This document shows, one piece after another, positions 9,195 to 64,000 of a stretch of DNA of 64,000 nucleotides. This stretch comes from Eledone cirrhosa (taxonomy: Eukaryota): contig CAXHJY010000876.1 of assembly GCA_964016885.1 (NCBI GenBank), forward strand, positions 1 to 64,000, read 5' to 3'. The stretch's first letter is position 1; each line of letters begins with the position of its first letter. The translations under genes and the position numbers were made by a program. Below the pieces are notes generated by a model that was not told where the DNA came from, did no database searches, and saw only the letters and a program-made list of their open reading frames with translations.

Positions 9195-9195
<1 letters not shown>

Positions 9196-9269
<74 letters not shown>

Positions 9270-9299
9270 TTGTTGTTGTTGTTGTTACTACTACGACTG

Positions 9300-9358
<59 letters not shown>

Positions 9359-9417
9359 GTTGCTGCTGTTGTTGCTACTGCTGTTGCTGCTGCTGCTTTT
9401 GCGACTACTACTACGAT

Positions 9418-9466
<49 letters not shown>

Positions 9467-9717
9467 GCTGCTGTTGCTGCTGTTGTTGCTACTGCTGTTG
9501 CTGCTGCTGCTTTTGCGACTACTACTACGATTGCTACTGCTACTGCTACTACTACTACTACTAGTACTACTACTGCTGCTGCTGCTACTGCAGCTGCTGG
9601 TGCTACTACTACTACTACTGCTGCTACTACTACTACTGCTACTACTGCTGCTACTGCCACCACCACAATCACCACCACACCACTACTACTACTGCTACTG
9701 CCACCACCACACCACCA

Positions 9718-9767
<50 letters not shown>

Positions 9768-9838
9768 GCTGCTACTGCCACCACCACAATCACCACCACA
9801 CCACTACTACTACTGCTACTGCCACCACCACACCACCA

Positions 9839-9885
<47 letters not shown>

Positions 9886-9972
9886 GCTGCTACTTCCACC
9901 ACCACAATCACCACCACACCACTACTACTACTACTACTGCTGCTGCTACTTCCACCACCACAATCACCACCA

Positions 9973-10003
<31 letters not shown>

Positions 10004-10223
10004 GCTGCTGCTACTTCCACCACCACAATCACCACCACACCACTACTACTACTACTACTACTACTGCTGCTGCTACTTCCACCACCACAATCACCACCAC
10101 ACCACTACTACTACTACTACTACTACTGCTGCTGCTACTTCCACCACCACAATCACCACCACACCACTACTACTACTACTACTACTACTGCTGCTGCTAC
10201 TTCCACCACCACAATCACCACCA

Positions 10224-10260
<37 letters not shown>
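9196..10260. repeat. Compound trinucleotide array (CTG/TTG/CTA/CCA) with higher-order repeats
   Basis: Read directly from the sequence. Confidence 0.95.
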
Positions 10261-10262
<2 letters not shown>

Positions 10263-10582
10263 ACGTTCCCTTTGAAGTTAGCGTACAAAAGATGGACGTG
10301 TATACATGTGTGTAGCTACATTACTGTCTTATACATATTGGAATTTCTGCTCACACACACACATGCAACATTTGAAAACATACATACATACACACACTTA
10401 TATATAAGTACATACACACATACATATATAGACACATATATACATACACACATATATATATGTGTATATATATGTGTGTATATATATATATGTGTGTGTA
10501 TATATATATATGTGTGTATATATATATATATGTATACACATATATATATATATATATATATGTATACATATATGTGTATATA

Positions 10583-10651
<69 letters not shown>

Positions 10652-10656
10652 ACATA

Positions 10657-10692
<36 letters not shown>

Positions 10693-10703
10693 CATATATA
10701 TGT

Positions 10704-10791
<88 letters not shown>

Positions 10792-10831
10792 ACACACACA
10801 CACACACATATATATACACATATATATGTAT

Positions 10832-10885
<54 letters not shown>

Positions 10886-10974
10886 ACATGTGGTAGCCAG
10901 AACAATTAAGAATAGAGTGAGAAAGAAAATAACTAACAAACAAAATAAATAAGGATGAACATATTGAGACCGAT

Positions 10975-24935: not shown

Positions 24936-25677
24936 GGTCGGACGCCATGCTTTGACGCATAGAGTTACGGCCCTTGTCATTCTGAGTTCAAATCCCGCCG
25001 AGGTTAACTTTGCCTTTCATCCTTACGGGGTCGAAAAAATAAAGTACCAGTAATGCACTGGGTAATTGCTGGCCTTGTGCCAATAGTAGAAACAATTATA
25101 TTTGTGGATTGGCAGTATCGGTAGAGGGTCGGACGCCATGCTTTGACGCATAGACTCACGACCCTTGCCATTCTGAGTTCAAATCCCGCCGAGGTTAACT
25201 TTGCCTTTCATCCTTACGGGGTCGATAAAATAAAGTACCAGTAATGCACTGGGTAATTGCTGGCCTTGTGCCAATAGTAGAAACAATTATATTTGTGGAT
25301 TGGCAGTATCGGTAGAGGGTCGGACGCCATGCTTTGACGCATAGACTCACGACCCTTGCCATTCTGAGTTCAAATCCCGCCGAGGTTAACTTTGCCTTTC
25401 ATCCTTACGGGGTCGATAAAATAAAGTACCAGTAATGCACTGGGTAATTGCTGGCCTTGTGCCAATAGTAGAAACAATTATATTTGTGGATTGGCAGTAT
25501 CGGTAGAGGGTCGGACGCCATGCTTTGACGCATAGACTCACGACCCTTGCCATTCTGAGTTCAAATCCCGCCGAGGTTAACTTTGCCTTTCATCCTTACG
25601 GGGTCGATAAAATAAAGTACCAGTAATGTACTGAGTAATTGCTGGTCTTGTGCCAAAAAGTAGAAACAATTATATTT
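24936..25677 (+). mobile_element. Head-to-tail tandem array of four SINE units, 191-bp period
   Basis: gagttcaaatcccg recurs at 24984, 25175, 25366 and 25557. Dispersed single copies occur at ~13050-13190, 33125-33315, 56645-56835 (-) and 20800-20890 (-). Confidence 0.9.
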
Positions 25678-44394: not shown

Positions 44395-44569
44395 GTAAAC
44401 GGTCATCATTATCCCCTCAACAAACCACCACCACCACCACTTCCACCACGACGACGACGACCACCACCACCACCACCACCACCACCACTTCGACGACCAC
44501 GACCACCACCACGACCACCACCACTACCACCATCACCGTCGCCGCCAATATCACCCAAACAGTAACAAG

Positions 44570-45014
44570 ATGAGTGCCGTTCCGAAGAACCTACGGCAGC
44601 CGGTTCTGTTCCTGAGCCACGGCGGTGGTCCCTCGCTCTTCATGGACGCCAAACAGTATCCGAGTACGGGTGGCATGGACAAACATTCAGACGCCGCCCA
44701 GTTCTTTCGTGAATTGACGCGCACCTACCTGAGGAACCGACCGAAAGCGGTACTGGTGGTCAGTGCTCACTGGTCCGAACAGGTGGCCACGGTGATGGAG
44801 GACAAATCGCACACGCTCTATTACGATTATTACGGATTTCCAGATAATACTTACAACCTAAAGTGGTCGGTATCCGGCGCTCCGGCCGTGGCTGCCCGGG
44901 TCATGCAGCTATTCAAAGCGAAAGGGATTACTTGTAATAATATTCACAGCAGAGGGTTAGATCACGGAGTATTTGTACCATTGAGTCTCATCTGGCCTAG
45001 AGCCAACGTCCCGG
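44570..45014 (+). CDS. DODA: First coding exon of a LigB/DODA-family class III extradiol ring-cleavage dioxygenase (4,5-DOPA dioxygenase / YgiD-like)
   Basis: ATG in aacaagATG context. The translation has the family motifs LFLSHGGGP, VVSAHW, YYDYYGFP and RGLDHGVFVPL..IWP.ANVP. A donor ccgG|gtaaga at 45014/45015 (phase 1) falls where the PVVQLS motif should continue. The remaining exons were not found in the window. Confidence 0.92.
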
Positions 45015-45197
45015 GTAAGAAAAACAAACTATTATTTCACAGTAAAAAATATATTTAATTCATTTATCCATACTATATATATATTTTTTCTCTATCTTTC
45101 TATCTTTCTATCTTTCTATCTTCCTTTCTCTTTCTCCGTTTCTCTCACTCGGCTTCTCTATCTCTCTCACTCTCTCGCTTCATCTATCTATCTATCT

Positions 45198-45339
45198 TGT
45201 GGCGCCTCCCCCCTATTGGGGATTTCGATTGTTGAAATTGTTTGTTTTTATATTTTTTACACGACTGTATGTAAAATCCCCGGCATGTCTTTGTATTGTC
45301 CCCTTTCTTGTTGCGCCCTTGTGGCTAATAAAGAAATCT

Positions 45340-45388
<49 letters not shown>

Positions 45389-45882
45389 ACACGTTTTTAT
45401 TGTATGTAAACTTCCCCCTTTGTATTTGTCCCCTTCTTTTGTGCCCCTGTGGCTAATAAAGAAATATATCTATCTATCTATCTATCTATCAACTGATTTT
45501 TTCAAATACCACTTTGGAAGAAGAATCAGGATGGAGAGAGAGGTGCTGTACCCCAGCAAGTTTTATGAAAGGTGGGTGAAAGTGGCGAGAATGGCCCGAG
45601 TGAATGGGCCTTCTCTCTATATCAGCCTGTAGGTTGAGGAAAAGGAGGATGAGAAGAAAGGAGTACAAACTCTTCGTACTCCTGGAGATGAGGGTTGCAC
45701 ACTTTTTCGGGGGTATGTGTTACCCATATGTAATGTCTCCCCCTATTGGGGAAAATCGACTAACTTTTTAAATTGCATTTGTTATAATATTTTACACGTT
45801 TTTATTGTATGGAAACTTCCCCCTTTGTATTTGTCCCCTTCTTTTGTGCCCCTGTGGCTAATAAAAAAACATATCTATCTTC
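45198..45882 (+). mobile_element. Three consecutive 3' fragments of a LINE (Tx1/L1-like) in (ATCT)n, within the dioxygenase intron
   Basis: The tail ccctgtggctaataaagaaat(atct)n is repeated three times. The longest piece encodes FFKYHFGRRIRMEREVLYPSKFYERWVKVAR. The clade assignment is inference. Confidence 0.55.
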
Positions 45883-46113
45883 AGATATCTATCTTCAGAT
45901 ATCTATCTTTTCTCTCTGTTTCCCCCCCCTCTCTCTCTTTCTCTGTCTCTCTTACTCTAACGCTCTCTCTCTCGCTGACTCTCTCTCTCAATCTCGCGCT
46001 CTCTCTCTCTCTATCTATTTATCTGTCTATATTTGTACGTATATTACAAATGTATATATATATAAGTAGGTACGTATGTATGGATAAAAGCATCATCCAT
46101 ACATGCGCCCGTG

Positions 46114-46186
<73 letters not shown>

Positions 46187-46333
46187 ATTAAAATACTGGA
46201 GCGTGTTGGAGTTAAACACCCTCTTCGTATTATAGAAATGACAGTAAAAGGTATAGCTCAATGTAATTAAACAGAGCCGAAGAATTATGAAAATAAAACA
46301 AAGAAGCCTTCAATACATCAAAAGTCTTTATTA

Positions 46334-46371
46334 GCCAACAATGTTTCGTCCTATTAAGGACTCATCAGGGC
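46334..46371 (-). ncRNA. Minimal hammerhead ribozyme motif, intact
   Basis: Minus strand: gcc CTGATGA gtcc ttaata ggac GAAAC att GTT ggc, followed by AATAAA. Lies in a TA-flanked insert (46184-46385). Confidence 0.88.
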
Positions 46372-46702
46372 AATCAAAACCACAATATATATATATATAT
46401 ATTATATATGTATACATATCTATATATAGATGTATATACATCTAAATATAGATTATACTCATACACATAGTTTGAATGTGTGTATTTGTATGCATACATG
46501 TCTCAATAAACAAATATACAAATATATATATATAGTTGTGTGTGTGTATGGGTGTGTATGTATGTGTGTGTGTATGCGTTTGTGTGTGAGTACTGATCTA
46601 TCTATCCGTAGGTCTATCTCTTAATCGTTCGAATTAATAATAAATGTGTGTGTGTGTGTATAATATATATATATGTGTGTGTATAATATATATCTTTATA
46701 TA

Positions 46703-46756
<54 letters not shown>

Positions 46757-46873
46757 CAAAGAGATATTTAATTTGTTGGTAATTCAACAAATTTATTTTT
46801 AACAGATTCAAAGCACTCGACAAGTTTCCTGATATTAATAAATGGAAACTATATTTATAAAACCATATTTATT

Positions 46874-46927
46874 CTATTATATATATTTCAAGGGTACCAA
46901 AAACTTTGGTACGCTCTCATCAGATAA
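46874..46927 (-). ncRNA. Hammerhead motif, intact core
   Basis: Inverted copy of 47062-47114 with a different loop II. Confidence 0.78.
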
Positions 46928-47061
46928 TATACAAAATTTGTTTCATAAATAGTAACATACCCCAGAAACCAGACCTTATCGGTTCAGGTTCCAAACGGAA
47001 TCTGAACTGATAAGGTCTGGTTTCTGGCGTTTGTTACTATTTATGAAACAAATTTTGTATT

Positions 47062-47114
47062 TTATCTGATGAGAGCGTACCAAATTGTTGGTACCCTTGA
47101 AATATATATAATAG
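47062..47114 (+). ncRNA. Hammerhead motif, intact core
   Basis: ttat CTGATGA gagc gtaccaa attg ttggtac cctt GAAAT atat ATA atag. Confidence 0.8.
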
Positions 47115-47182
47115 AATAAATATGGTTTTATAAATATAGTTTCCATTTATTAATATCATTGATATATATATATAATATATAT

Positions 47183-47271
<89 letters not shown>

Positions 47272-47414
47272 ATATATTATATATATATATATTATATATA
47301 TATATATTATATATATATATATTATATATATATATATTATATATATATATATTATATATATATATATTATATATATATATATTATATATATATATATTAT
47401 ATATATATATATTA

Positions 47415-47470
<56 letters not shown>

Positions 47471-47695
47471 ATATAATATATATATATATACAATGAACAC
47501 TTGTAGAGACCTATAAATACCATACTTATTTTTTGATACCCAGATTCCTGATGATTTCTAAAGAATGAAACAGTTCTAGTCCTGTAGAATCTCATCTATA
47601 TTAAAACTTTTATACTCTGCAATGTATTGAGTACCTTACTTACTGTGGTTACCTCCGATTCAACCCGGAATAACGTACATATAATATATATATAT

Positions 47696-47937
47696 ATATA
47701 ACTGAACAAAAAAGAAAAACGAACACAGACATATACATATATGTGTTCAAATCGTAAGGGACCAGATTCGCTAAGGTGAAGAGACTCACTATAGACAATA
47801 GGGTTTGCCAAATTGAGTCTGGCAAACCCCATTGTCTATAGTTAGTAGTCTCTTCACCTTAGCGAATCTGGTCCCTTACGATTTGAACACATATATGTAT
47901 ATGTCTGTGTTCGTTTTTCTTTTTTGTTCAGTTATAT
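47696..47937. mobile_element. Fold-back palindrome (axis ~47815) abutting (TA)n
   Basis: Near-perfect arms of about 115 bp. No hammerhead core was recognised. Confidence 0.75.
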
Positions 47938-48027
47938 TAGACGACTCGGAAAAATCTCTTTCCTAGAGCTAATTCATTGTAAGAGACTATTTTGAGTTCT
48001 AACTCAATATATGCCTTATATATACAT

Positions 48028-48304
48028 ATATTAATAAAAGGAATTCCAACTTTGTCTGATTTACTCGTTTTAATTACAATCCTTTAAAATTTATAATGGT
48101 ATTAGAATGAAATAGTATGGTAGAATATTATATGTTAATTGTTAATTGAACAAGTACTTTCATGCGCAATCTTCAGGTTCATATTCTGTGGTGACAGTCA
48201 AGTTTGCAATTTTCAACTATTTTATTCTAATACCATTACAAATTTTAAAGGATTGTAAATAAAACGAGTAAATCAGACAAAGTTGGAATTCCCTTTATTA
48301 ATAT
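48028..48304. mobile_element. Fold-back element with ~90-bp arms and a ~100-bp spacer
   Basis: Arms ~48028-48116 and ~48216-48304; the spacer holds a hammerhead motif. Confidence 0.75.
48147..48181 (-). ncRNA. Ultra-minimal hammerhead motif
   Basis: Minus strand: tgaac CTGAAGA t tgcgca t GAAAG ta CTT gttca. Helix I is 5 bp. Confidence 0.65.
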
Positions 48305-48332
48305 AATCTTCTATACACAATCATACACACCC

Positions 48333-48378
<46 letters not shown>

Positions 48379-48406
48379 TATATATATTATACACGCACAC
48401 ACACAT

Positions 48407-48456
<50 letters not shown>

Positions 48457-48668
48457 TTATATGTATGTAACATAGATGTATAATATAAATGTATAACAGA
48501 CATGCATTTACACATACATGTTTAAGTGTATGATAATTGTATAGTGTGTTAATCTATTTGATATGTACTTAAATATTTATATATGTATATACATTGTATA
48601 TGCATATGTATGTGTATATATTTACGTAATGTATATGTGCTAGCTTATAAAATATATCAGAATGTACA

Positions 48669-48721
<53 letters not shown>

Positions 48722-48931
48722 TTCAAGAGTAACCAATCTTAAAGAGAGAGATGGAGATAGGAGACGAGATAGGAGAGGAAAGATTGTATATATATGAATA
48801 TATATGTATATATATGAATATATATGTATATATATGAATATATATGTATATATATGAATATATATGTATATATATGAAAAGATTCATGACCCCTACGGCT
48901 GAGCTCCGGCCGTTTCGATAGCTAGATCCGA

Positions 48932-49008
<77 letters not shown>

Positions 49009-49039
49009 CATTCATTATTATTACGACTAAAAAGTCATA

Positions 49040-49160
<121 letters not shown>

Positions 49161-49429
49161 GTACGTTTGCATTTATGTATGTGTATGTGTATACATGTTT
49201 ATGTATATTTATGTATAGTATATATACACTCACCCTAATACTTTCCGCCAAATCTTAGATCCCATCCCTATATTTTTTGCTCAATCCCCACCAACTTAAC
49301 TTTATTAACTTTAATATAATTGACTTATGCTTTTATTATTATATTTTGTTAGAACTCTAGAATCTTTTGGGTGGAGCCTTGGGCCTCGCGGGCTTCCATA
49401 TCGCGATATATTAATATAAAAGGGATGCA

Positions 49430-51122
49430 GGCACACAGATACACACACACACAGGCACAGATAGATACATACACACACATGCACACATAGATACATACAC
49501 AGACAGGCACACATAGATACATACACAGACTGGCACACATAGATACACACACAGACTGGCACATATAGATACACACACAGACAGGCACATATAGATACAT
49601 ACACAGGCAGGCACACATAGATACATACACAGACAGGCACATATAGATACATACACAGGCAGGCACACATAGATACATACACAGACAGGCACACATATAT
49701 ACATACACAGACTGGCACACATAGATACACACACAGACTGGCACATATAGATACACACACAGACAGGCACATATAGATACATACACAGGCAGGCACACAT
49801 AGATACATACACACACACAGGCACACATAGATACATACACAGACAGGCACACATAGATACATACACACACAGGCACATATAGATACACACACAGGCAGGC
49901 ACACATAGATACATACACAGACAGGCACACATAGATACATACACAGACAGACACACATAGATACATACACAGACTGGCACACATAGATACACACACAGAC
50001 TGGCACATATAGATACACACACAGGCAGGCACACATAGATACATACACAGACAGGCACACATAGATACATACACAGACTGGCACATATAGATACATACAC
50101 AGACTGGCACATATAGATACATACACAGACTGGCACATATAGATACATACACAGACTGGCACATATAGATACATACACAGACAGGTACACATAGATACAC
50201 ACAGAGGCAGGCACACATAGATACATACACAGACAGGCACATATAGATACACACACAGACTGACACATATAGATACATACACAGACAGGCACATATAGAT
50301 ACATACACAGACTGGCACACATAGATACATACACAGGCAGGCACATATAGATACATACACAGACAGGTACACATAGATACACACAGACAGGCACACATAG
50401 ATACATACACAGGCAGGCACACATAGATACATACACAGACTGGCACATATAGATACACACAGACAGGGACATATAGATACACACAGAGGCAGGCACACAT
50501 AGATACATACACAGACAGGCACATATAGATACATACACACACAGGCACACATAGACACACACAGATAGGGACATATAGATACATACACAGACAGGCACAC
50601 ATAGATACATACACAGACAGGCACACATAGATACACACACACACACCCAGGCACACAGAGATACACACACACACACACACACAAGCACACAGAGATACAC
50701 ACACACCCAGGCACACAGAGATACACACACACACAGACAGGCACACATAGATACACACACAGGCAGGCACACGTAGATACACACACACACAAGCACACAG
50801 AGATACACACACACCCAGGCACACAGAGATACACACACACACAGACAGGTACACGTAGATACATACACAGACAGGCACACATAGATACACACACAGGCAG
50901 GCACATATAGATACACACACACAGACAGGCACACGTAGATACATACGCAGACATGCACACATAGATACACACACACACACACAGGCACACAGAGATACAC
51001 ACACACACAGACAGGCACACGTAGATACATACACACACAGGCACACAGAGATACACACACACACACAGGCACATATAGATACATACACACACAGGCACAC
51101 ATAGATACATACACACACACAC
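49430..51122. repeat. 26-bp minisatellite derived from CA/TA repeats
   Basis: Unit acagacaggcacacatagatacatac and variants. Confidence 0.92.
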
Positions 51123-51203
51123 GCAAATTGATGCCTCTTAAAATCTGAAGATGTGGTCAATATTGGACCTTTAAACTTAGGTAGCACTTTCATGTGTGTG
51201 TGA

Positions 51204-51278
<75 letters not shown>

Positions 51279-51687
51279 TGTGGTGCTGACCATTAGCCAT
51301 GTAAGTACTCAATGCATGGAGAGATGTAGAGAGAATACAGAGATATGGAGAATCCCGACCGCGGCGCCAAGCGGTTTCGAAAGCGGTCGGACTTTACACA
51401 CACACACACACACTCACAAACGCACACACACACACAGAGACAGACAGACACACACACACACATATATATATACACATATACGTGTTTGTGCATAGAATAA
51501 TAAAAAAAAAGCAGAAGTCAGATATAGGTAGATAGTTAGTTCGTTGTTTTACAATCGTTTCAGAGGGTCGATTGATCGATGCAGATCCATGTACCGACTA
51601 ACATGGTAGTGGTTAAGTTGCTACCTATTTCTAGTCTCGAAATCCCTGTTCAATCGGCTGTCTTCTTCAGAAACACTAAACTACAAA

Positions 51688-51783
<96 letters not shown>

Positions 51784-51850
51784 GCTCTTGCTGTATGTAA
51801 ATATATCTCTTTATTTGGTTATATATATATGTGTGTGTGTGTGTGTGCGC

Positions 51851-51882
<32 letters not shown>

Positions 51883-51884
51883 GT

Positions 51885-52213
51885 GTGTGCGTAAAAAAAT
51901 AATAAATAATTTGTCGATCGACTTTCGTCAAATTGGACCGAGGAAACTATGTTTCCTTTGGTCTTTCCAATTGGTAATACTATCTATCGGTCGCAACTCC
52001 AGGTAGGAGGGCAACGTGAAATAAAGTGTGTTTCTCAAAGACATGACGCATCCTCCAGTTCTCTAACCAATCAGCCATACGCCTTCTTATATATATTTAT
52101 GTGTGCAACTAGATGAGGGAACCAAGCTGAAAGTGACTGCGACTTTTCTACTTTGAAAATTAATTCCTACACTCTACCAACAAGTAATTAGCGATCATTT
52201 CCTTAATGGTTGG

Positions 52214-52269
<56 letters not shown>

Positions 52270-52520
52270 GTGTAGTTTTTCCAAATTGAAGGATGAGTAT
52301 TTTAAACTTTATTTTATTCTGAGTTAAGGCTCTATTGATTTTTCCCTGGATTTCACCAAATTCCGTGGATGAATCTATATCCTGATTCTTTTTGAATTGA
52401 GTTTGAATTATTTTCCCACATCTTACGTTAACTATTTTTCCATTTTGACGCTATAGTCACATATATTATGGAATACTGTTGGCTTCTTGCTACAATAATT
52501 TCTATACTTTTCATTTATAT

Positions 52521-52579
<59 letters not shown>

Positions 52580-53000
52580 ATGTATGTATGTATGTATTAC
52601 AGTATGTGTTTAAAATGCCGTAGTATAGAAAACATCCAACCATTAAGGAAACGACCGCTAATTACTTGTTGGTTGTGTGTAGGAATTAATTTTCAAAGTA
52701 GAAAAGTCGCAGTCACTTTCAGCTTGGTTCCCTCATCTAGTTGCACACATAAATATATATAAGAAGGCGTATGGCTGCTTGGTTAGAGAACTGGATTCGC
52801 AATCGTGAGGTTGTCATTTCGATTCTTGGACTGGGGGATGCGTCATGTCCTTGAGAAAGACACTTTATTTCACGTTGCCCCTCCTACCTGGAGTTGCGAC
52901 CGATAGATAGTATTACCAATTGGAAAGACCAAAGGAAACATAGTTTCCTCGGTCCAATTTGACGAAAGTCGATCGACAAATTATTTATTATTTTTTTACG
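51885..53000. repeat. Local inverted duplication (arms ~51885-52222 and ~52626-53000)
   Basis: The arms are near-identical reverse complements and include a SINE fragment. The left arm has an internal deletion. Confidence 0.88.
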
Positions 53001-53352
53001 CACACACACACACACACACACACACGCACATACACATATATATATATTTATATAATATACATGTATAATATAATGATCAGAAACATACTCTAATATATAC
53101 ATACATGCAGACATGCAAACATATCTACCTAGTTGATGTTGTGTAAATTGCAATGGGAGAGTCTTGTAACTATGCTAGAAACCGACTCTCTCTTTATTGG
53201 AAAATATTTGTGAAATTATAAAACCAGAAGAACATACATACATATATATACCCCCCCCCCCCCCCACACATATATATAATGATCAGAAACACATTTTCGT
53301 AGAGCCAACACACCATTCCAGGCCTATTTAAAAGACGGTATATATATGTATA

Positions 53353-53408
<56 letters not shown>

Positions 53409-53518
53409 CACACATATATATATATATGACTGTGCAAATGGCAAGCGTTGAGATGACATTTTACTAGCCTGAATTAAATGCTTGCTTACCTTACATACCC
53501 TATTAGATATGTTGACCG

Positions 53519-53549
<31 letters not shown>

Positions 53550-54014
53550 TATGACGATGTGTCCCAGCTGTTTGTTAAAAGGAACTTTCGACTTGTTAAA
53601 TTAATTTGTCATGTAGCCAAGTATTCTACAGAGACGTGTATTCTTAACGAAATTCTCAGGAATATTCTACATAACAGTGTAAGACATGGCTGTCCTTTTG
53701 AATGACAGGTGCAATCAACTTCAGCGCCTGGGTATTCTTCCAAATAAATAGTGTCAACTTAGAGTTTAGCAAGCTAACAAACCTAGCTTTTCACTCACTA
53801 TAAGAAAACGACTCAGCCTGCATTTTCTACTATATAGTCCACATGATACTATCCGACTCTCTTTAGATATTTCCACAATGCTGCTACGCGGTAAAGATAT
53901 TAAGTGATTTATTTATTGATCGCAGGAAAGTGTATATTATATACCATCATATAAGTTATTCATACAAGTTTGTATAAAACTCATCTTTTCTGGTTTAGAA
54001 ATTCGTCTATCAGT

Positions 54015-54275
54015 GGAGACTCGTGTGTTAGTGGTAAGAGTGTTGCACTTGCTATCGTAATGCCGTGAGTTCGGTTCTTGGGCTGGGTTGTGCGTTGTGT
54101 TTATGAACAAAACACTTCATTTCACGTTGCTCCAGTGTACTCAACTGAAAATGAATATCAGCAATAGCTGGGAGGTTTATCCCTTCGATGGACTCGCGTC
54201 CTCTCCAGGGCGAAGTCTTGTATTCTCAGTCGCTTTATGCCACAGAAACCGGGATAAGCTCCGGCCTGATTAGCT
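54015..54275 (+). mobile_element. tRNA-derived SINE with a conserved central/3' domain
   Basis: A-box and B-box-like head (tagtggtaagag..gagttcggttc) and a gatggact..ccaggg..gaaaccgggataagctccgg block typical of old metazoan SINEs. Confidence 0.6.
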
Positions 54276-55140
54276 TCCGGGCTCGAGACAGACTTTAGAA
54301 TTCGTCTGTCTGATGTCTGTGTTGTAGGCAGCCGTCTAGTTGGTGTTGATGGTATCGCCAGATTTGGGTACAATCCATACGACGGGTTTCTAAACATTTT
54401 CCGTTTACCCAATTTCACTCACAAGGTTTTGGTGGACCTGAAGCTATGGAAAAAGACACTTTACCTAAGATGCCTCCCTCAGGTATCGAAACCGTAAACC
54501 TCTTTTTTCTGGAGACAGCTTTCTTATCGCTTCAGTTAGGGTTTTGTTGTATTTTTGTAACAGTTTCCAGTGAATTCAGCATACCTGAATAGTTAAAGGG
54601 GTTCACTTCGCAATGATTAGGGTATGGGTCCAATCACACTGCATGGTATCCTCAACAAATGCCATTTAGGGTTAGGGTTAGAGTTAGGGTTAGGACAGAC
54701 CCATACCTTGTGAGTGAAAATAAGTAGACGGAAACGTATTTGGGAGTCCGTCTGATAGACTTTATCGCTAATTCAAAGGGCCAACCTTGTGTCATTTTGA
54801 ATCTCCCTGAGTGAGAATTTCGTAAAAATTAAATGTGTCTGTGGAATGCTCAGCCACTCGTATGTTAATTTAACGCGTCGACAGTTCCTTTGACCGAACA
54901 ACTACAACACTTGAATCTCCCTGAGGATTCCGTAAAAATTAAATGTGTCTGTGGAATGCTCAGCCACTTGCATGGTAATTTAACACGTCGAAAGTTCATT
55001 TGATCGAACAACTGGAACACCCGAATCTCCCTGAGAATTACGTTAAGAATACACGTGTCTGTGGAACGCCCGGTCACTTACTTGCATGTTAATTTTACGA
55101 ACAGACAGTTCAGTAGATTGGAGAGCTGGGACACGTACTG

Positions 55141-55598
55141 TCAGAAGTGAAGGATGATGATGATGATGATGGTGATGATGATGGTGATGATGATGATGAT
55201 GATGATGGTGATGATTGCGGTGGTGATAATGACGGTGGTGATGACGGTGATGAAGATGACGATGGTGGTGGTGATGATGATGATGATGATGGCGATGATG
55301 ATAATGATGGCGATGGTGATGATGATGATAATGACGATTATTATGATGATGATGATGATGATGATGATGAGGATAATGACGACGACAGTGGCGACGATGG
55401 CGATGATATTGATGATGATGATGACGATAATACTGCTGCTGCTAATGAAGGTGATGATGATAACGAATGATGATGATGACAATGATGATGGTGACAATGA
55501 TGATGATGACAATGATGATGATGACAATGATGATGATAACGAATGATGATGATGACAATGATGATGATGACAATGATGATGATGACAATGATGATGAT
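55141..55598. repeat. (GAT)n array
   Basis: Read directly from the sequence. Confidence 0.95.
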
Positions 55599-55797
55599 AC
55601 AACGGTTTCCAGATTCCGGTGATTTCGTATATCGATATCGAGTATTTGAAGAGGTTTTCCAGTGCAATAAGATACTTTAGGCTTCTCTTCAGCCCCTGCG
55701 GCTTCTTCAGGTTTGGCATTTCTCACATACGTTTCTCACTATCTCCATGGAAAGACCTTATCAAAGTCATGATCGGCGTAGAGGATATTTATCTCGA

Positions 55798-56625
55798 GTG
55801 TGTGTGGAGGAGAGGTGTTGTGAGGGTTGTGGGCGATGTGGGGTTAGGGTTTGTGTGGAGGAGAGGTGTTGTGAGGGTTGTGTGTGTTGTGTGGTTGTGT
55901 GGTTGTGGGGTTAGGGTTTGTGTGGAGGAGAGGTGTTGTGAGGGTTGTGTGTGTTGTGTGGTTGTGGGGTTAGGGGTTGTGTGGAGGGGTGTTGTGAGGG
56001 TTGTGGGCGTTGTGGAGGGGTGTTGTGAGGGTTGTGTGTGTTGTGTGGTTGTGTGGTTGTGGGGTTAGGGTTTGTGTGGAGGGGTGTTGTGAGGGTTGTG
56101 GGCGTTGTGGGGTTAGGGTTTGTGTGGAGGAGAGGTGTTGTGAGGGTTGTGTGTGTTGTGTGGTTGTGTGGTTGTGGGGTTAGGGTTTGTGTGGAGGGGT
56201 GTTGTGAGGGTTGTGGGCGTTGTGGGGTTAGGGTTTGTGTGGAGGGGTGTTGTTGTGAGGGTTGTGTGTGTTGTGTGGTTGTGTGGTTGTGGGGTTAGGG
56301 TTTGTGTGGAGGGGTGTTGTGAGGGTTGTGGGCGTTGTGGGGTTAGGGTTTGTGTGGAGGGGTGTTGTGAGGGTTGTGTGTGTTGTGTGGTTGTGTGGTT
56401 GTGGGGTTAGGGTTTGTGTGGAGGGGTGTTGTGAGGGTTGTGGGCGTTGTGGGGTTAGGGTTTGTGTGGAGGGGTGTTGTGAGGGTTGTGTGTGTTGTGT
56501 GGTTGTGTGGTTGTGGGGTTAGGGTTTGTGTGGAGGGGTGTTGTGAGGGTTGTGTGTGTTGTGTGTGTTGTGTGGTTGTGTGGTTGTGTGTTTGTTGGTT
56601 TGTGTGGTTGTGTGGTTGTGTGGTT
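55798..56625. repeat. GT-rich minisatellite (~112-115 bp higher-order unit) containing GGGGTTAGGG
   Basis: Repeated ggggttagggtttgtgtggagg. Confidence 0.9.
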
Positions 56626-57154
56626 GAATGATTTCTTTATTTTAGTAATTGTTTCTACTTTTTGGCACAAGGCCAGCAATTACCCAATGCATTACTGGTA
56701 CTTTATTTTATCGACCTCGTAAGGATAAAAGGAAAAGTTAACCTCGGCGGGATTTGAACTCAGAATGGAAAGGGCCGTATCTCTGTGCGTCAAAGCATGG
56801 CGTCCGACCCTCTACAGGTACTGTCAATCCAGCGCCATTCATTTTTTTTTATTTTAATAATGATTAGCAGAATGGCCCGGCGCTGCTCGGGATTCTAAAC
56901 ATAGATTGGCATGTTTATCCTTCCTTTCTGAAACAGTTTCGTTGTATGTTCACCAATTGATGCAGAAGTCCTAATAAAAAGTAAAGTCGCCTTGGGTGAA
57001 TAGGCAAATAGTTTTCCATTAAGATTTTTCAAAAGCATGTAATTGCGTTCCCTCTCTTTTTGTGGTTGTTTTTGCTGGTGTCGAACCTCGTGAAATAAAT
57101 ACGTTTGTTTATATTTTGTTATTGTGTATGCAAAAATATCTGTACACGAATATA

Positions 57155-57246
<92 letters not shown>

Positions 57247-57419
57247 TAACAGATTAAAGTTTAAGCAAATAATCGATGCTTTCACCCTTAACGGGATCTT
57301 CTGAAACTAAACATATCAATCTGTGAACGCAGAAGTAAATATTTCGAAAAACGTTACACACTATATATATATATATATACACATACATTATATATACATA
57401 TATATACACACACAGATAG

Positions 57420-57718
57420 TGTCATAATGTCGTAATGGAGACAGTCAGTCATACAGACAGATATTATAAGGGCGCGACGTTATAGCTATGTATCTATCTA
57501 AAAAGGCAGGCTAAGGAAAGACAGAGAGATCGCTAAACGGCGCCTAATGCGGTCCCTAGGGCATTGAAAATTTGAAATATTTTTTGGTCAAAACAGTCAC
57601 AGGACCATAAGTATTACATGTGTAAAGTTTGAAAATAATCGGTTGGGTGGTTCTCGAGTTTTAGGGAGTCAGTCAGACAGATAGACAGACAAACATTCTC
57701 TGTTTTAAATATATAGAT
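57420..57718 (-). mobile_element. Non-autonomous Helitron/Helentron-like element
   Basis: Layout aaagtttgaaaataatcggttg..(cagac)n..tttaaatatataga resembles Lep1/DINE-1-type elements. The minus strand begins TCTATATATT. Confidence 0.45.
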
Positions 57719-57749
57719 GATGATGATGCTCCCGAGAAGGAGAAGGAAA

Positions 57750-57806
<57 letters not shown>

Positions 57807-57974
57807 CGTAGTAGTGGTAGAAGAAGAAGGTGACGAAGAAGAAAGTAGACTGAAGTTTACGAAGGTCAAGGAAAATTTGGGGTCTTGGGTAAACGTTGTC
57901 GTCAAAGAATTATTAAATTACGCTTATTGCTTATATTACTACACACTCCGTCATTTTTGACAGGTACTACGCTA

Positions 57975-58008
<34 letters not shown>

Positions 58009-59320
58009 ATCGCTGAGTTTTAGAGTGAAAGAAAGGGAAACAATGGAAAATATATATAACAATAAAATTGTGGAAAGTTCAATGAAAAAACACAAACTTT
58101 GGAATAAATATGAAAAATATGAGAAAACCATGGAAAAATTACTGAAATTAAACTGTAAACCTTACACATACATACAATATATGACATACACTCACACAAT
58201 ATAAACGACATACACTTACACAATACGTATGCACACATTTGCATAATATATTACCATGTACATACACTTACCCAATATATATACGTACGCATAATCATAT
58301 ATATAAATACACACAATATGTGCACACATTTACACAATACATATACATACACAAAACATACACACACATACACAGTAGATGCACATATTATTGATATTAC
58401 GATTTGCTTAAAAACATTATTTTTGTTAATTCGTGATAAAACACACACATACTCACATACATATACGTACACTTACATACACGAATAATCACACATGCAC
58501 GCACATACACGAAAGCATGTTGAAGCATGTTGCATATTAAACATACATATGTACAACGATATACGTGCATATATATATATATATATATATATGCAGGCAT
58601 ATATAATGCATACATAAATACGTACGAACATATATACATTCATGCATACGTAGATTCGCCCACACACACGCACACGCACACACACACGCATATATATATA
58701 TATAGAGAGAGATATATATACACTATATATATATATGTATATATATATATATAGAGATAGATATATATACACTGACATATTCATATGAACATATCCATAT
58801 ATATAATCACATACACAGGCACAAACGTTCGCATATGCACAAATATATATATATACAAAGACACACACCTACTCGCGCATATATATATATATATATATAT
58901 ACACACAACCACACACACATATATATATGTATATATATATACACACAGATACATATATAGACGTTCATTCACAGATACATACGCAATTTAAAATATTGCG
59001 AACGTGATGTTTTTTTATGTGCATATTTATTTTAATTATCTTATTGTAACAAGCCGACAGGCACACACACATACACATACACACACATACACATATATGC
59101 ACATATATGCACATATATGCACATAATATATCTATATATTGTACACATATTGCGCGCTCTCACACACATACATGCATAGTTGAAGTTATGCACATGTCTA
59201 CATAAAATTGAATACATACATTCGTTCATACATGTAAGCATACATCCGTATATACATATCTACGAGCATAAATGCGTGTATGTATACTTGTGCAAATGCA
59301 CAAGTATACATACATGAATG

Positions 59321-59352
<32 letters not shown>

Positions 59353-59396
59353 GATAGATAGATAAGATAGATTTAGATATAGATATATATATATTT

Positions 59397-59455
<59 letters not shown>

Positions 59456-59787
59456 CAGATAGTATATCTATACATACGCCCAAATTTATGTATACACATA
59501 GATACCTACACGCTCAAGTACACATACCTACACGCTCAAGTATACATGCCTACATGCTCAAGTATACATGCCTACATGCTCAAGTATACATGCCTACATA
59601 CACGTGCTTACATACATGTAGTTACAGATAAACTTTCTTTCGCTGTATCACTGTTTCCAATCCCGTATCGATCTGTTTATCAATTTCTCTTTGATATTCA
59701 TACTTACATATATGCATGCATAAATACATACATACATGCATACATAAATACATACATACATAAATACATACATACATACATATATAC

Positions 59788-60300
59788 ATGGTGGCTACCA
59801 ACTCGTTTTCGAGTACGGCCACTACTTTATATCCATGTAGGAGAACCCCTACCGATGCGCTGAACAGGTGTGACTTTTTAGTCCAGCCAGCGACTTGAAA
59901 ACTCTGGTACAAACACTACACTTGTGACAATTATTGACACATAGTGCTGGGCCCATGGTACCATGTGACGACAAGTTCAGAGAGATCTCCAGATATAAAG
60001 CAATGCCTGTGCCGCGAAGCTTTTATAGTGAGCAAAGGCACTGCACAAAGCCAGTCCCACTCTCTTAACCAAGATGATATTTACCAAAAAGAAGAACAAG
60101 TCAACATCATTGGATACCATCAGGGTTGCAGGTGTTATATCAGAGTTTTCCTTCTCCTAGAATTCTGCCTTGACAAAGGCTAAGGGGTCATCTTTCCCGG
60201 TGATTTTGGATGGCCATTGACTCTTAAGAGCTTCTTTGCCCTTTGACAGGTTTTGTGTTTAGTCCTTCAGGATGTCCAAAGTCACCCTCCTCACCAAGAA
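59788..60300 (-). mobile_element. Second, 5'-shortened copy of the RTE-like element in (TATG)n
   Basis: Near-identical to 32280-32790. Confidence 0.8.
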
Positions 60301-60395
60301 ACCATACATGCATACATACATACATACATATATTCATACATACATACATACATACATACATACATACATACATACATACATACATACACACACAT

Positions 60396-60432
<37 letters not shown>

Positions 60433-60885
60433 ACACGCACACATATATAATATCGTATTTCTAGAAGCGTTGAGCTAAGCTCCATAATTTTTACTTCGGT
60501 ATCAGTGTTGCCTGAATTCGAGCCTTGTAAGCGACGCTGTTCACAATGTATGTCTCTTGGGTCTTATATAACCAACTCTTAATTTAAAAAGTAAGATTCA
60601 TATATATATACATATATATATACATATATATATACATATACATTTATATATACTTATACATATATATCGTCTTCTGGTTGCAACGTTTTTTGAAATATCC
60701 AGTTCTGCGTTTACAGATTGACTTTGTTAGTTTCAGAAGATCCCGTTAAGGGTGAAAGCAGCGATTCTTTGCTTAAACTTTAATCTGTTATTTTAATAAA
60801 TATTTGCTCTAGGGTTCTTATATATTTGATATATATTTTCCTTATCGAGCCCTCTTTGGATTTTAGTCTTCAATTTTATTATTAT

Positions 60886-60919
<34 letters not shown>

Positions 60920-60998
60920 TGTATATATATACTGTATATATATAGTAAAAGAATGAAGAGTAACATGGTTGTCTGTACAATAAGGGGCTTTCTTTCAA

Positions 60999-61109
60999 GT
61001 ACTGACAATTGTTTCATTGATCAGGTGAGTCTAGAGGTCACTAATCGCTTGAAGTTGCGTCACTCGATCTCCAATACATTATTTACCTCTAATCAACACA
61101 TCAGAGTAC
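60999..61109 (-). ncRNA. Hammerhead motif with a 64-nt loop II (A9 changed to U)
   Basis: Minus strand: gtact CTGATGT gttgattag [64 nt] ctgatcaat GAAAC aatt GTC agtac. Confidence 0.7.
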
Positions 61110-61172
<63 letters not shown>

Positions 61173-61345
61173 TGTATATATAAGGTATGAATCGAAGTTG
61201 TAGCTTCCACATATAGCAGGACCCCCACGGCTGACTTATTCATATAAGCATACTCTACTAGCCCTAGTATCGAGTAGTTTGGTGAGTAATGATCTATCCA
61301 ATTTCTTACTGAATCCATCTTGATTTACATACATATATATATACC

Positions 61346-61417
<72 letters not shown>

Positions 61418-61422
61418 TATAT

Positions 61423-61611
61423 GGAAAAAATCAGGACCTCGGCGTCTGAACTCCGCCCGTTTCGACCGCTAGATCCGAACTAGCTGTCGAAACGGCCGGA
61501 GCTCAGCCGTCGGGGTCCTGACTCTTTTCCTATTACCCACTCTACTACCCTAAGTATCGAGTACTCTGGTGCGTTATGGTCCACTGGTATCTTACTACAC
61601 TTTCTTTGTTA
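61423..61611. mobile_element. Family A fold-back copy (axis ~61476) in (TA)n
   Basis: Palindrome 61423-61530 plus tail. Confidence 0.8.
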
Positions 61612-61770
61612 TATATATGTAAGTGGGTTTTGATATATATGTATATCGGATCTCTGCGGTTGCAATGACAGAAATCATCTCGCCACTGACGTGAACCTAA
61701 ACATCGAATGCTCACCTGGGTGAAACTTCAGTAACTTCACGTTACACTCCCTGGATATATATATATATAG

Positions 61771-61822
<52 letters not shown>

Positions 61823-62579
61823 GTGTGTATGAGTGAGTGAGTGAGTGAGTGAGTTTATATATATATATATATATCAATCTTTCGATTAACGAAACTAATA
61901 TATACTAATATATACTATCGAAACTAATATAAACTTCGGTGTCAGAAACTTCTTTATCAGAGGAAGTTAAAACAGTTTTTATGCATTTAAGTTATTTTAA
62001 TTATCGAAAGAAATACACATTTATTGAAAAAAAACCAAACAAACACAAACACAAGGCCGATAATATGCGTGCATATACAGAAAATAATCCTTTTAGCATG
62101 ATTATATAAAATCCAATAAAAAAGAAATATACAGTTTCTTTATTTTGTGCAACTAGCCACTTTCTCTAAAACTATAAGAAGAAACAATCTCCTAAAAATA
62201 TATATATGATACTACTGGTTCTGTTTATCACCATTCACTTTCATCAATTGATTTGAGATTTAGATACTTTCTAATGCACCCGAAACTCCTGATGGAATCT
62301 TAGGCCTGTCGGTGTGTGTTGGGCTTTTTACACCCGGCAGAACCCATCCCTCTCAAGGTCTGAACACGGTCGACTTCTTCAAGAAAAGGAGAGAGTAAGA
62401 AAGAGATGTAGAGGAAGAATCGACCTCAATATTAGATTCGTACTTTTTTATCGACTGCTAAAGGATGAAAGGTAAAATTGACCTCGGTGGTAGATCTTGC
62501 TGGTTGTGTAATGCATGGAGGCTTCGTTCGTAGTTTGGATGATCGTCTTGTAGGAGTTGTATTGCTTGGGAAGTGGCTC

Positions 62580-62892
62580 AGCGACCGTATCTGTATCTGA
62601 GTTGTCCAACATTACCAAACTTAGACCAATTACATCAATTGTCATGTCAAGAGTTCTCAAACTAAAACGATCAACTCGTGGTGTGAGTAGGTTATGCCTG
62701 GAAGGAAGGTTGGCTGGTGAGAGAAGCAGAGGCTGGCAGCCAAAACGATGGCTTGATAATGTCAACTTATGGACTGGACTTGATCTTTGCTCTTTGAACT
62801 CTGCTGCTGGTGATCGAACTTTGTGGAGAGAGACATCTCATGTTGATGTGCAGTCTGCAACTGGCGGAGTTTAGCGTCACAAGAATGCTTAG
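62580..62892 (+). mobile_element. RTE/BovB-like LINE 3' fragment
   Basis: Encodes LEGRLAGERSRGWQPKRWLDNVNLWTG...AGDRTLWR. Confidence 0.8.
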
Positions 62893-63404
62893 TAAGAGCT
62901 TTTCAGTTTATAGTGATGGACGATTTTCTCCATGTGTTGTAGACCGTCTTCTTTGGCTGAAGTCCAAGGAAAGCTATCACCTCTAAAAGATCTGGAAATG
63001 TTTGATATATTTGAACAAACTGAGGTGAAATGACCTTTATTAATAAATATCTGATAGTCACAAATAGTTCTAATATACCAGACACCTACAGCCCCTTCTC
63101 GTCAATCAATTCTTTTATTTTATATTGACGCGAACATAGTTTACGACAATGTCTCAAGCCCAACGACCCTGCGATCGAATTTGAATTCTAATTTCGTTTT
63201 AAACTAAACCTAAAAACACAACCGACTAACTTATTCACGTGATACAGGACGTTAATTCGTTGTTGTAAGCCATCGTACTTACCATTCATGTTGCTCGCAT
63301 TTTCATAACGTTAATCACGGCATCCTTTTATACCCAAAGCATTTACCAGTAAAACAGAATGAACTGTTCAATACTATGCTCTTCCACACAGAGGTGGCAA
63401 TAGG

Positions 63405-63665
63405 TAGTTCAGTTCAGTTTTGTCTTGTGTCCTCCTCTGGAGGATAGGCCACCAACAGGTTTTCTCCAACAATCATCAAGGCCCTAGTCTAGTCGCTCCA
63501 ACTGTCTCTAGGAATGTCCCTATCTTTTTGCATGTACCTCCAAGATCATAGTCTCAAATATTCCTAGGTCTTCCTCTTTTTCTTTACCCCGATGGATTCC
63601 AGGCAAGAGCTTGACATCTGGCATAATACATGTTTTTTGAGGATGTGATCAATCCATCTTCAACA
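63405..63665 (-). mobile_element. Decayed RTE LINE 3' end
   Basis: The minus strand encodes RWIDHILKK and KRGRPRNI remnants, with a short (ACTGA)n tail. Confidence 0.65.
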
Positions 63666-64000
63666 CCTCAAAGACAGCCAAACAGCAATAGGTAGCCTGA
63701 GTGAAGGTCATTTGACCAACAGGAAATAGACTTCAAGTAGAATCCAATGAAACAATATTTGTAATTCTTCATTTCACAGATAAGTATATATGTATGGACA
63801 CGTAAATCCTGGTGGAGTTGTAAGGACGCCGTAGTGACTTGCGCGTTTCTGGGGTATTTTTAAAACTCCAGGGAGTCCATCCCCTCTACAGTTCTGAACA
63901 CAGCAAATTTCTTCCAGCTAACGAGAGGGGGATAAAGAAGAAGTGAGAAAGAGAGGCAAAGAGTGAGAGAAAGGAAGTGAGAAAGAGAGTCAGAGAAAGT

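What the first reader, a model, noticed from the sequence alone, without database searches (positions are those of the whole stretch)
44570..45014. Intron-containing DOPA-dioxygenase (LigB/DODA)-like gene in an animal genome
The exon retains the SHGGGP, SAHW and RGLDHG motifs. Established: this family makes betalamic acid from L-DOPA in Caryophyllales plants, bacterial YgiD-type homologues can also do so, and vertebrates lack it. Cephalopod ink is rich in DOPA/dopamine. Inference: it could open catechol rings for pigment synthesis or detoxification. The splice donor and host-repeat context argue against contamination. Homologues may already be annotated in other invertebrates, so the novelty would be functional.
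Basis: partly seen in the sequence, partly recalled or inferred. Interest (0 to 1): 0.7.

Follow-up and report, generated by a model that had tools for sequence, protein, structure and literature searches.

The report
Mollusc-wide catechol ring-opening enzyme gene
This is the first half of an intact, spliced octopus-type gene for an iron enzyme that likely cuts open catechol rings; clams, snails and cuttlefish share it and databases already label it, but its substrate is untested and it lacks the sequence marks of beet-type pigment enzymes.

Summary
Window 44570-45014 is exon 1 of a two-exon DODA/LigB-family gene. Exon 2 lies on another scaffold (G000:C18:32,091,505). A public contig joins the two exons with no mismatch, giving 287 codons without a stop across an intron of at least about 83 kb. 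All three metal histidines and both catalytic histidines are kept.

It is not a contaminant and not new. Orthologues 90-94% identical are already auto-annotated '4,5-DOPA dioxygenase-like' in Octopus and Argonauta. The family spans bivalves, gastropods and cephalopods with one shared intron, and this genome has a second paralogue.

The pigment reading is weakened. Molluscs without ink carry the gene, and it lacks all three sequence marks of betalain-forming plant enzymes. Molluscs have instead their own conserved changes near the predicted pocket. The best reading is a general catechol ring-cleaving enzyme with an unknown substrate. Its nearest sampled relatives are protist proteins, but a bacterial sister is not rejected. 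My paper searches found no study of an animal member.

The parts
44570..45014 (+). Coding exon 1 (148 codons + 1 base) of the DODA/LigB-like dioxygenase, paralogue A
   Evidence: covered up to the donor by contigs of run X4
44548..44569 (+). Sequence just upstream of the ATG, likely 5' UTR; the covering contig runs 45 more letters into the CAC-repeat tract that the tool skipped
   Evidence: X4 contig of 411 nt matches 44548-44913 with no mismatch; X4 as RNA is inferred
44618..44620 (+). His17 (SHGGGP), predicted Fe ligand 1 = YgiD His22 / beet His15
   Evidence: PMC11926856 and PMC12186922 passages
44768..44770 (+). His67 (SAHW), predicted Fe ligand 2 = YgiD His57 / beet His53
44831..44839 (+). 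Tyr88-Gly89-Phe90: the XGF state of low- or no-activity DODAs, not the DD[Y/F] of betalain-forming ones
   Evidence: aligned to RGF of 8in2 and DDY of 29ky/9j2l; motif meaning from PMC7384185 passages
44963..44965 (+). His132 (RGLDHG), predicted catalytic second-sphere His = beet His119 / YgiD His121
45015..64000 (+). Start of the single phase-1 intron (GT donor at 45015). It runs past the window and the contig end. Exon 2 is outside the window at G000:C18:32,091,505-32,091,923 (AG acceptor; His188, His243, His248; stop)

Best explanation
This is exon 1 of an intact, spliced two-exon cephalopod gene from a mollusc-wide DODA/LigB family, and its product is likely an iron-dependent enzyme that opens catechol rings to clear catechols rather than to make betalain pigment. 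Shown: the gene structure, the spliced join, the five conserved histidines, orthology and the shared intron. Inferred from the beet and E. coli enzymes: His17, His67 and His248 would hold Fe(II); the catechol would chelate the iron through its two hydroxyls; His132 and His188 would position and deprotonate it; O2 would be inserted next to the diol (extradiol cleavage), giving a ring-opened semialdehyde that may cyclise by itself. Guessed: the substrate is a DOPA/dopamine-derived or dietary catechol. The side-chain end of the pocket is remodelled in molluscs, so free L-DOPA to betalamic acid would be at most a side activity.
For: Spliced contig across two scaffolds with 0 mismatches. 864-nt CDS, 287 aa, no internal stop, GT-AG. 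Histidines map to YgiD His22/57/234/121/177. Among 18 mollusc rows, His132, His188, His243 and His248 are in 18 of 18; His17 and His67 are in 17 of 18, the miss being an N-truncated model. The model of the 90%-identical Argonauta orthologue (pLDDT 91.9) matches beet DODA 8in2 at Z 35.1, rmsd 1.9, 260 aligned. Molluscs form one clade, 100/97, and share one intron position. Betalain marks are absent. The structure paper notes that catechol-binding histidines are conserved in this family while pocket residues vary, implying diverse substrates (PMC11926856 passages).
Against: No activity, substrate or tissue data. Run X4 has no library record, so 'RNA' is inferred from the join; it is one sample of one study. 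E. coli YgiD also has XGF and H-N-L yet cleaves L-DOPA, so missing plant marks do not exclude DOPA cleavage. PMC12138177 argues that high activity can come from divergent residue sets. The Asp254/Tyr260 mapping rests on a moderately confident C-terminal profile alignment. A detoxifying role and a biosynthetic role cannot be told apart from sequence.
Confidence: 0.62

Rival explanations
1. It makes a specialised mollusc metabolite: ring cleavage of a catechol or o-aminophenol followed by re-cyclisation to a pyrone or pyridine, as Arabidopsis LigB does for arabidopyrones.
For: Mollusc-only conserved changes near the predicted pocket: acidic residue 279 in 18 of 18 and His280 in 17 of 18 molluscs, neither pair in the 4 sister, 14 other eukaryote or 21 bacterial rows; H-N after the catalytic His is kept in only 1 of 18 molluscs against 21 of 21 bacteria. 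AtLigB is biosynthetic (as cited in PMC12138177 and PMC4493658 passages). 2-aminophenol 1,6-dioxygenases share the fold.
Against: No candidate product or partner gene was found; no Pfam match in 79 other window frames scanned. That these residues line the pocket is inferred from alignment, not measured on coordinates.
Confidence: 0.2
2. It makes pigment from L-DOPA or dopamine (betalamic acid or muscaflavin type) in ink gland, skin or shell, perhaps in one of the two cephalopod paralogues.
For: The closest solved structures are plant DODAs. YgiD and AtLigB give muscaflavin from L-DOPA without the plant marks (PMC11926856, PMC12138177 passages). Octopods keep two paralogues, 63% identical. DOPA and dopamine are abundant in ink (recalled, no call).
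Against: Present in inkless bivalves and snails. XGF instead of DD[Y/F]; no H-P-S/A-N/D-x-T-P; Gly19, Val272 and Met278 stand where beet has Thr17, Asp254 and Tyr260, whose loss nearly abolishes activity; paralogue B lacks them too. No listed paper links betalamic acid to molluscs by title or abstract start (5 of 5 listed).
Confidence: 0.11
3. The protein binds metal but is not a ring-cleaving enzyme any more (a MEMO1-like redeployment of the fold).
For: Animal MEMO1 uses the same fold (Z about 15).
Against: All five histidines are kept across molluscs; MEMO1 is only 8-10% identical to the model.
Confidence: 0.05
4. The exon is bacterial or prey contamination, or an orphan pseudo-exon on an unplaced scaffold.
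For: It lies on a small unplaced contig with no exon 2.
Against: Exact spliced join to a 43.9-Mb contig; 90-94% identity to Argonauta and Octopus proteins; intron shared with the paralogue and other molluscs; C18 has a 200-N gap 50.7 kb upstream of exon 2.
Confidence: 0.01

Closest known systems
Octopus vulgaris CAI9738384.1, Argonauta hians GAB1606918.1, O. bimaculoides LOC106880842 (auto-annotated '4,5-DOPA dioxygenase extradiol-like' or uncharacterized)
   Same: Orthologues: 93.8% over 211, 90.1% over 284 and 92.5% over 212 aligned residues; one clade at 100/99.
   Different: Nothing of substance. Their names are automatic; I found no functional study.
Beta vulgaris 4,5-DOPA dioxygenase (PDB 8IN2) and other Caryophyllales DODAs (9J2L, 29KY)
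   Same: Fold (Z 35.1, rmsd 1.9), 3-His iron site, two catalytic His.
   Different: About 33% identity; lacks DD[Y/F], H-P-S/A-N/D-x-T-P and Thr17/Asp254/Tyr260.
Escherichia coli YgiD (PDB 2PW6, b3039)
   Same: His22/57/234 and His121/177 equivalents; XGF state; fold Z 27.5.
   Different: 24-26% identity; a long branch far from the mollusc clade; keeps H-N-L, which molluscs have lost.
Arabidopsis LigB (class I, H-N-L-R; arabidopyrone synthesis)
   Same: Same family; non-betalain member with its own catechol substrate (as cited in PMC12138177, PMC4493658).
   Different: No H-N-L-R motif here (H-S-F-E).
Sphingobium LigAB protocatechuate 4,5-dioxygenase (PDB 1BOU)
   Same: Class III extradiol fold, Z 20.3.
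   Different: LigB uses 2 His + 1 Glu (PMC11926856); here the third ligand position is His248; 13-16% identity.

Membership tests
DODA/YgiD-type class III extradiol dioxygenase (PF02900) | Pfam LigB score above the curated cut-off | tested here: met
   69.5 bits vs 26.3 with exon 1 alone
DODA/YgiD-type class III extradiol dioxygenase (PF02900) | Three-His metal site (YgiD His22/57/234; beet His15/53/229) | tested here: met
   His17, His67, His248
DODA/YgiD-type class III extradiol dioxygenase (PF02900) | Two second-sphere catalytic His (beet His119, His175) | tested here: met
   His132, His188
DODA/YgiD-type class III extradiol dioxygenase (PF02900) | LigB-like fold over the whole chain | tested here: met
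   Model of the 90%-identical Argonauta orthologue, not of this protein itself: Z 35.1, rmsd 1.9, 260 aligned to 8in2
DODA/YgiD-type class III extradiol dioxygenase (PF02900) | Fe(II)-dependent extradiol cleavage of a catechol | not testable with these tools
   needs an enzyme assay
NCBIfam NF007914 (YgiD equivalog) | Score above 233 bits | tested here: inconclusive
   59.2 bits, but only exon 1 (148 of 287 aa) was scanned
Betalain-forming high-activity plant DODA-alpha1 | DD[Y/F] in place of XGF | tested here: not met
   YGF at 88-90 (PMC7384185 passages)
Betalain-forming high-activity plant DODA-alpha1 | H-P-S/A-N/D-x-T-P after the catalytic His | tested here: not met
   H-S-F-E-K-M-G in paralogue A; H-S-D in paralogue B; motif from PMC12186922 passage
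Beet DODA substrate pocket (8IN2) | Thr17, Asp254, Tyr260 positioning L-DOPA | tested here: not met
   Gly19, Val272, Met278 by profile alignment; the C-terminal register is only moderately sure
Betalain-forming high-activity plant DODA-alpha1 | Betalamic acid formation from L-DOPA | not testable with these tools
   needs an assay
Class I plant LigB (AtLigB type) | H-N-L-R motif | tested here: not met
   H-S-F-E (PMC4493658 passage)
LigAB protocatechuate 4,5-dioxygenase | 2-His-1-Glu iron site | tested here: not met
   third ligand position is His248 = YgiD His234

The most novel reading that the evidence does not exclude
Molluscs run an undescribed catechol ring-cleavage pathway on an enzyme taken from a protist-type lineage, and in cephalopods one paralogue turns DOPA or dopamine into betalamic acid or muscaflavin, giving the first animal betalain-type chromophore.
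Probability: 0.07. Interest if true: 0.85.

Novelty: new member of a known kind. Interest (0 to 1): 0.33.

Why it matters
The gene itself is already in databases. What is left is a conserved, apparently unstudied mollusc enzyme. If it cleaves catechol rings, molluscs have a route to destroy or re-use DOPA-type and dietary catechols for which I found no named counterpart in other bilaterians. That would bear on ink, byssus and shell catechol chemistry and on tolerance of phenolics. The 287-aa single-domain protein is a cheap target for an assay. For genome curation, the splice links unplaced contig C903 to contig C18.

Tried and rejected
Exon 2 inside the window or on C903: none. Intronless retrocopy as the source of the spliced contig: family and protein searches of G000 gave only the four exons of two genes (best candidates only). 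Sequence overlap between C903 and 103 kb of C18: only dispersed repeats in the 40 best hits, so the placement in the gap is inferred. No RNA holder is on record for the stretch, so tissue expression could not be read. Run X2 laid nothing on exon 2; the tool calls such a blank no proof of absence. Dating the A/B duplication: A+Sepia had 82/74 support, and an octopod-only A+B clade was not rejected (AU p 0.455). Excluding a bacterial sister: not rejected (AU p 0.434). Naming the sister clade: no named member among the clusters looked up or the profile hits. The protein atlas gave no answer. Plant and fungal LigB sequences never entered my hit lists, so they are not in the trees. Other genes in the window: 0 Pfam families in 79 of 122 candidate frames scanned. 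Earlier findings of the scan: none. Papers: searches (40 of 51 listed) showed no study of an animal DODA by title or abstract start; one search was swamped by general mollusc papers, one search was void, and an abalone pigment-genomics paper had 0 hits for dioxygenase, DODA, betal or DOPA. Supplementary tables and subscription journals were not searched, and a differential-expression mention could lie there.

Full report
OBSERVATION. Window 44570-45014 reads from an ATG for 148 codons plus one base and ends at GTAAGA. The exon scores 69.5 bits on Pfam LigB (cut-off 26.3) and matches 4 PDB sequences, three plant 4,5-DOPA dioxygenases and E. coli YgiD. The flanks are microsatellites and dispersed repeats.

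GENE STRUCTURE. Searching the genome with two cephalopod homologues gave 4 matches: this exon on contig C903, a second-half exon on C18 at about 32.09 Mb, and a complete two-exon paralogue on C10 (intron 1,642 bp). A 770-nt contig of run X4 matches window 44915-45014 with its letters 1-100 and stops at the donor. A contig of the same length and depth (6.3) matches the C18 exon with letters 100-531, no mismatch, and its loose end is the end of the window exon. Contigs of runs X2 and X3 instead read through the donor into the intron. X4 has no library record, so I infer that it is RNA; it is one sample of one study. The spliced frame is 864 nt, 287 residues plus stop, GT-AG, with no internal stop. 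C903 is 77,157 bp long, and C18 has a 200-N gap 50.7 kb upstream of exon 2. The intron is therefore at least 32.1 + 50.7 = about 83 kb. That C903 belongs in that gap is likely but not shown, since no unique overlap was found.

RELATIVES. The protein is 93.8% identical to O. vulgaris CAI9738384.1 (over 211 residues), 90.1% to Argonauta hians GAB1606918.1, 74.2% to a cluster that holds a Sepia pharaonis protein, and 62.8% to its own paralogue. Two of the three octopod orthologues already carry the automatic name '4,5-DOPA dioxygenase extradiol-like'. In one search, 19 of the 120 listed rows were named to an animal species and all 19 were molluscs: cephalopods, gastropods (Haliotis, Gigantopelta, Pomacea, Littorina, Batillaria) and bivalves (Solemya, Pinctada, scallops, Dreissena, Tegillarca, Mya, Mytilus, oysters). 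The lists are capped at 120 of thousands and most rows are unnamed, so absence from other animals is suggested, not proven.

SHARED INTRON. The same phase-1 intron is in the paralogue. It shows as read-through products ending just after the same proline in cuttlefish-, octopus-, oyster- and other bivalve-cluster proteins. It is also seen directly in three metagenome loci (L108, L117, L139) whose proteins are 55-59% identical to an unnamed sister clade.

TREE. In FastTree on 429 rows, molluscs (support 97) and the unnamed sister clade (joint support 100) sat inside a 168-row group (99) with Amoeba, Pyxidicula, chrysophytes and MMETSP proteins; 0 of 80 prokaryote genome loci fell inside it. IQ-TREE on 58 rows (LG+G4, no mixture model; 20 of the 80 loci, 18 mollusc, 4 sister, 14 other eukaryote-group rows, Pyxidicoccus, YgiD) gave molluscs 100/97, molluscs + sister 100/99, a chrysophyte group next at 95/84, and the 21 bacteria apart at 100/97. 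A Thr before the catalytic His is in all 36 eukaryote-group rows and in none of the 21 bacteria. Against this, forcing molluscs + sister together with the bacteria was not rejected (AU p 0.434). The origin is open: inheritance with wide loss, or an old transfer from a protist-type or bacterial donor. No plant or fungal sequence was in the trees. The date of the cephalopod duplication is also open (AU p 0.455).

ACTIVE SITE. His17, His67 and His248 align with YgiD His22, His57 and His234, and His132 and His188 with YgiD His121 and His177. In the beet structure paper (PMC11926856; abstract and passages seen) His15/53/229 bind iron, His119 and His175 are essential, and Thr17, Asp254 and Tyr260 position L-DOPA. 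An AlphaFold model of the Argonauta orthologue (mean pLDDT 91.9) matches beet DODA at Z 35.1, rmsd 1.9, 260 aligned, well above other extradiol dioxygenases (Z 19-23) and MEMO1 (Z about 15). The catalytic core is therefore intact.

BETALAIN MARKS. All are missing. Residues 88-90 are YGF, the XGF state of low- or no-activity DODAs, not DD[Y/F] (PMC7384185, passages). After the catalytic His comes S-F-E-K-M-G, neither H-P-S/A-N/D-x-T-P (PMC12186922, passages) nor H-N-L-R (PMC4493658, passages). Gly19, Val272 and Met278 stand where beet has Thr17, Asp254 and Tyr260 (the last two by a moderately sure alignment). These marks are not decisive. YgiD also has XGF and cleaves L-DOPA to muscaflavin, and PMC12138177 (passages and section 25) argues that many residue sets can give high activity. 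Christinet 2004, Weng 2012, Bean 2018 and Kasei 2021 I know only as cited in those passages.

MOLLUSC SIGNATURE. Molluscs share changes next to those pocket positions: an acidic residue at 279 (18 of 18), His280 (17 of 18), Phe185 (17 of 18) and loss of the Asn after the catalytic His (kept in 1 of 18, against 4 of 4 sister rows and 21 of 21 bacteria). This suggests one old, mollusc-specific substrate. It is an inference from alignment; I had no coordinates to measure.

MECHANISM. Shown: an intact, spliced, conserved gene. Inferred: a His3-Fe(II) site would bind a catechol and O2 and cut the ring beside the diol, giving a semialdehyde that may cyclise. Guessed: the job is clearing DOPA/dopamine-derived or dietary catechols (0.62). 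Rivals are a specialised metabolite (0.20), pigment (0.11), a non-catalytic role (0.05) and contamination (0.01). That molluscs are rich in DOPA chemistry (ink, byssus, periostracum) is recalled, not from a call.

NOVELTY AND VERDICT. It works like a DODA/YgiD-type extradiol dioxygenase and passes every sequence and fold test for that family. It fails the tests for betalain-forming plant DODAs. The gene is a new member of a known kind, with annotated orthologues. Searches listed no study of an animal member (titles and abstract starts seen; supplements and subscription journals not searched). Interest 0.33: an ordinary annotation, with an open and cheaply testable question about its substrate.

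Noticed in passing
G000:C10:22,773,263-22,775,759 (L002, L006): Second, complete two-exon paralogue (285 aa, intron 1,642 bp), 79-80% identical to the other Octopus DODA-like protein. All five histidines are kept. GC at third codon positions is 0.38, against 0.55 for the window's gene.
   Followed up: yes
G000:C18:32,040,622-32,040,821 and contig C903: The spliced join links unplaced contig C903 (the window) to C18, which has a 200-N gap 50.7 kb upstream of exon 2; C903 likely fills it.
   Followed up: partly
P0014, P0158, P0161, P0162, P0164, P0229; loci L108, L117, L139: An unnamed clade sister to molluscs (100/99); related genomic loci have the same phase-1 intron. Probably another invertebrate group (inferred); no named member was found.
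   Followed up: partly
P0418 / P0041 cluster (Ephydatia muelleri KAL5457704.1): A freshwater sponge LigB sits among chrysophyte proteins, not with molluscs, and its cluster mates were called whole from long contigs, so they look intronless. It may be a separate transfer or a contaminant.
   Followed up: no
P0144 (O. vulgaris CAI9738384.1): The public model of the orthologue turns into unrelated sequence after about residue 211 and lacks the third metal His; likely an annotation or assembly error.
   Followed up: no
window about 45405-45880 and L002 about 2200-2545: Both paralogue introns carry pieces of the same short repeat near the donor (163 bp at 80%, 73 bp at 85%). The window intron also holds very high-copy repeat sequence at 45206-45298, so independent insertions are likely.
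   Followed up: partly
window 8730-10949 and 49352-51292: The two longest open frames (740 and 647 codons) have no Pfam match and overlap tandem repeats (period 3 and period 26); not genes.
   Followed up: yes
window 24936-25677: Tandem array of 3.9 copies of a 191-bp unit (98% matches) whose sequence also occurs dispersed on C18, so likely a SINE-like element.
   Followed up: no
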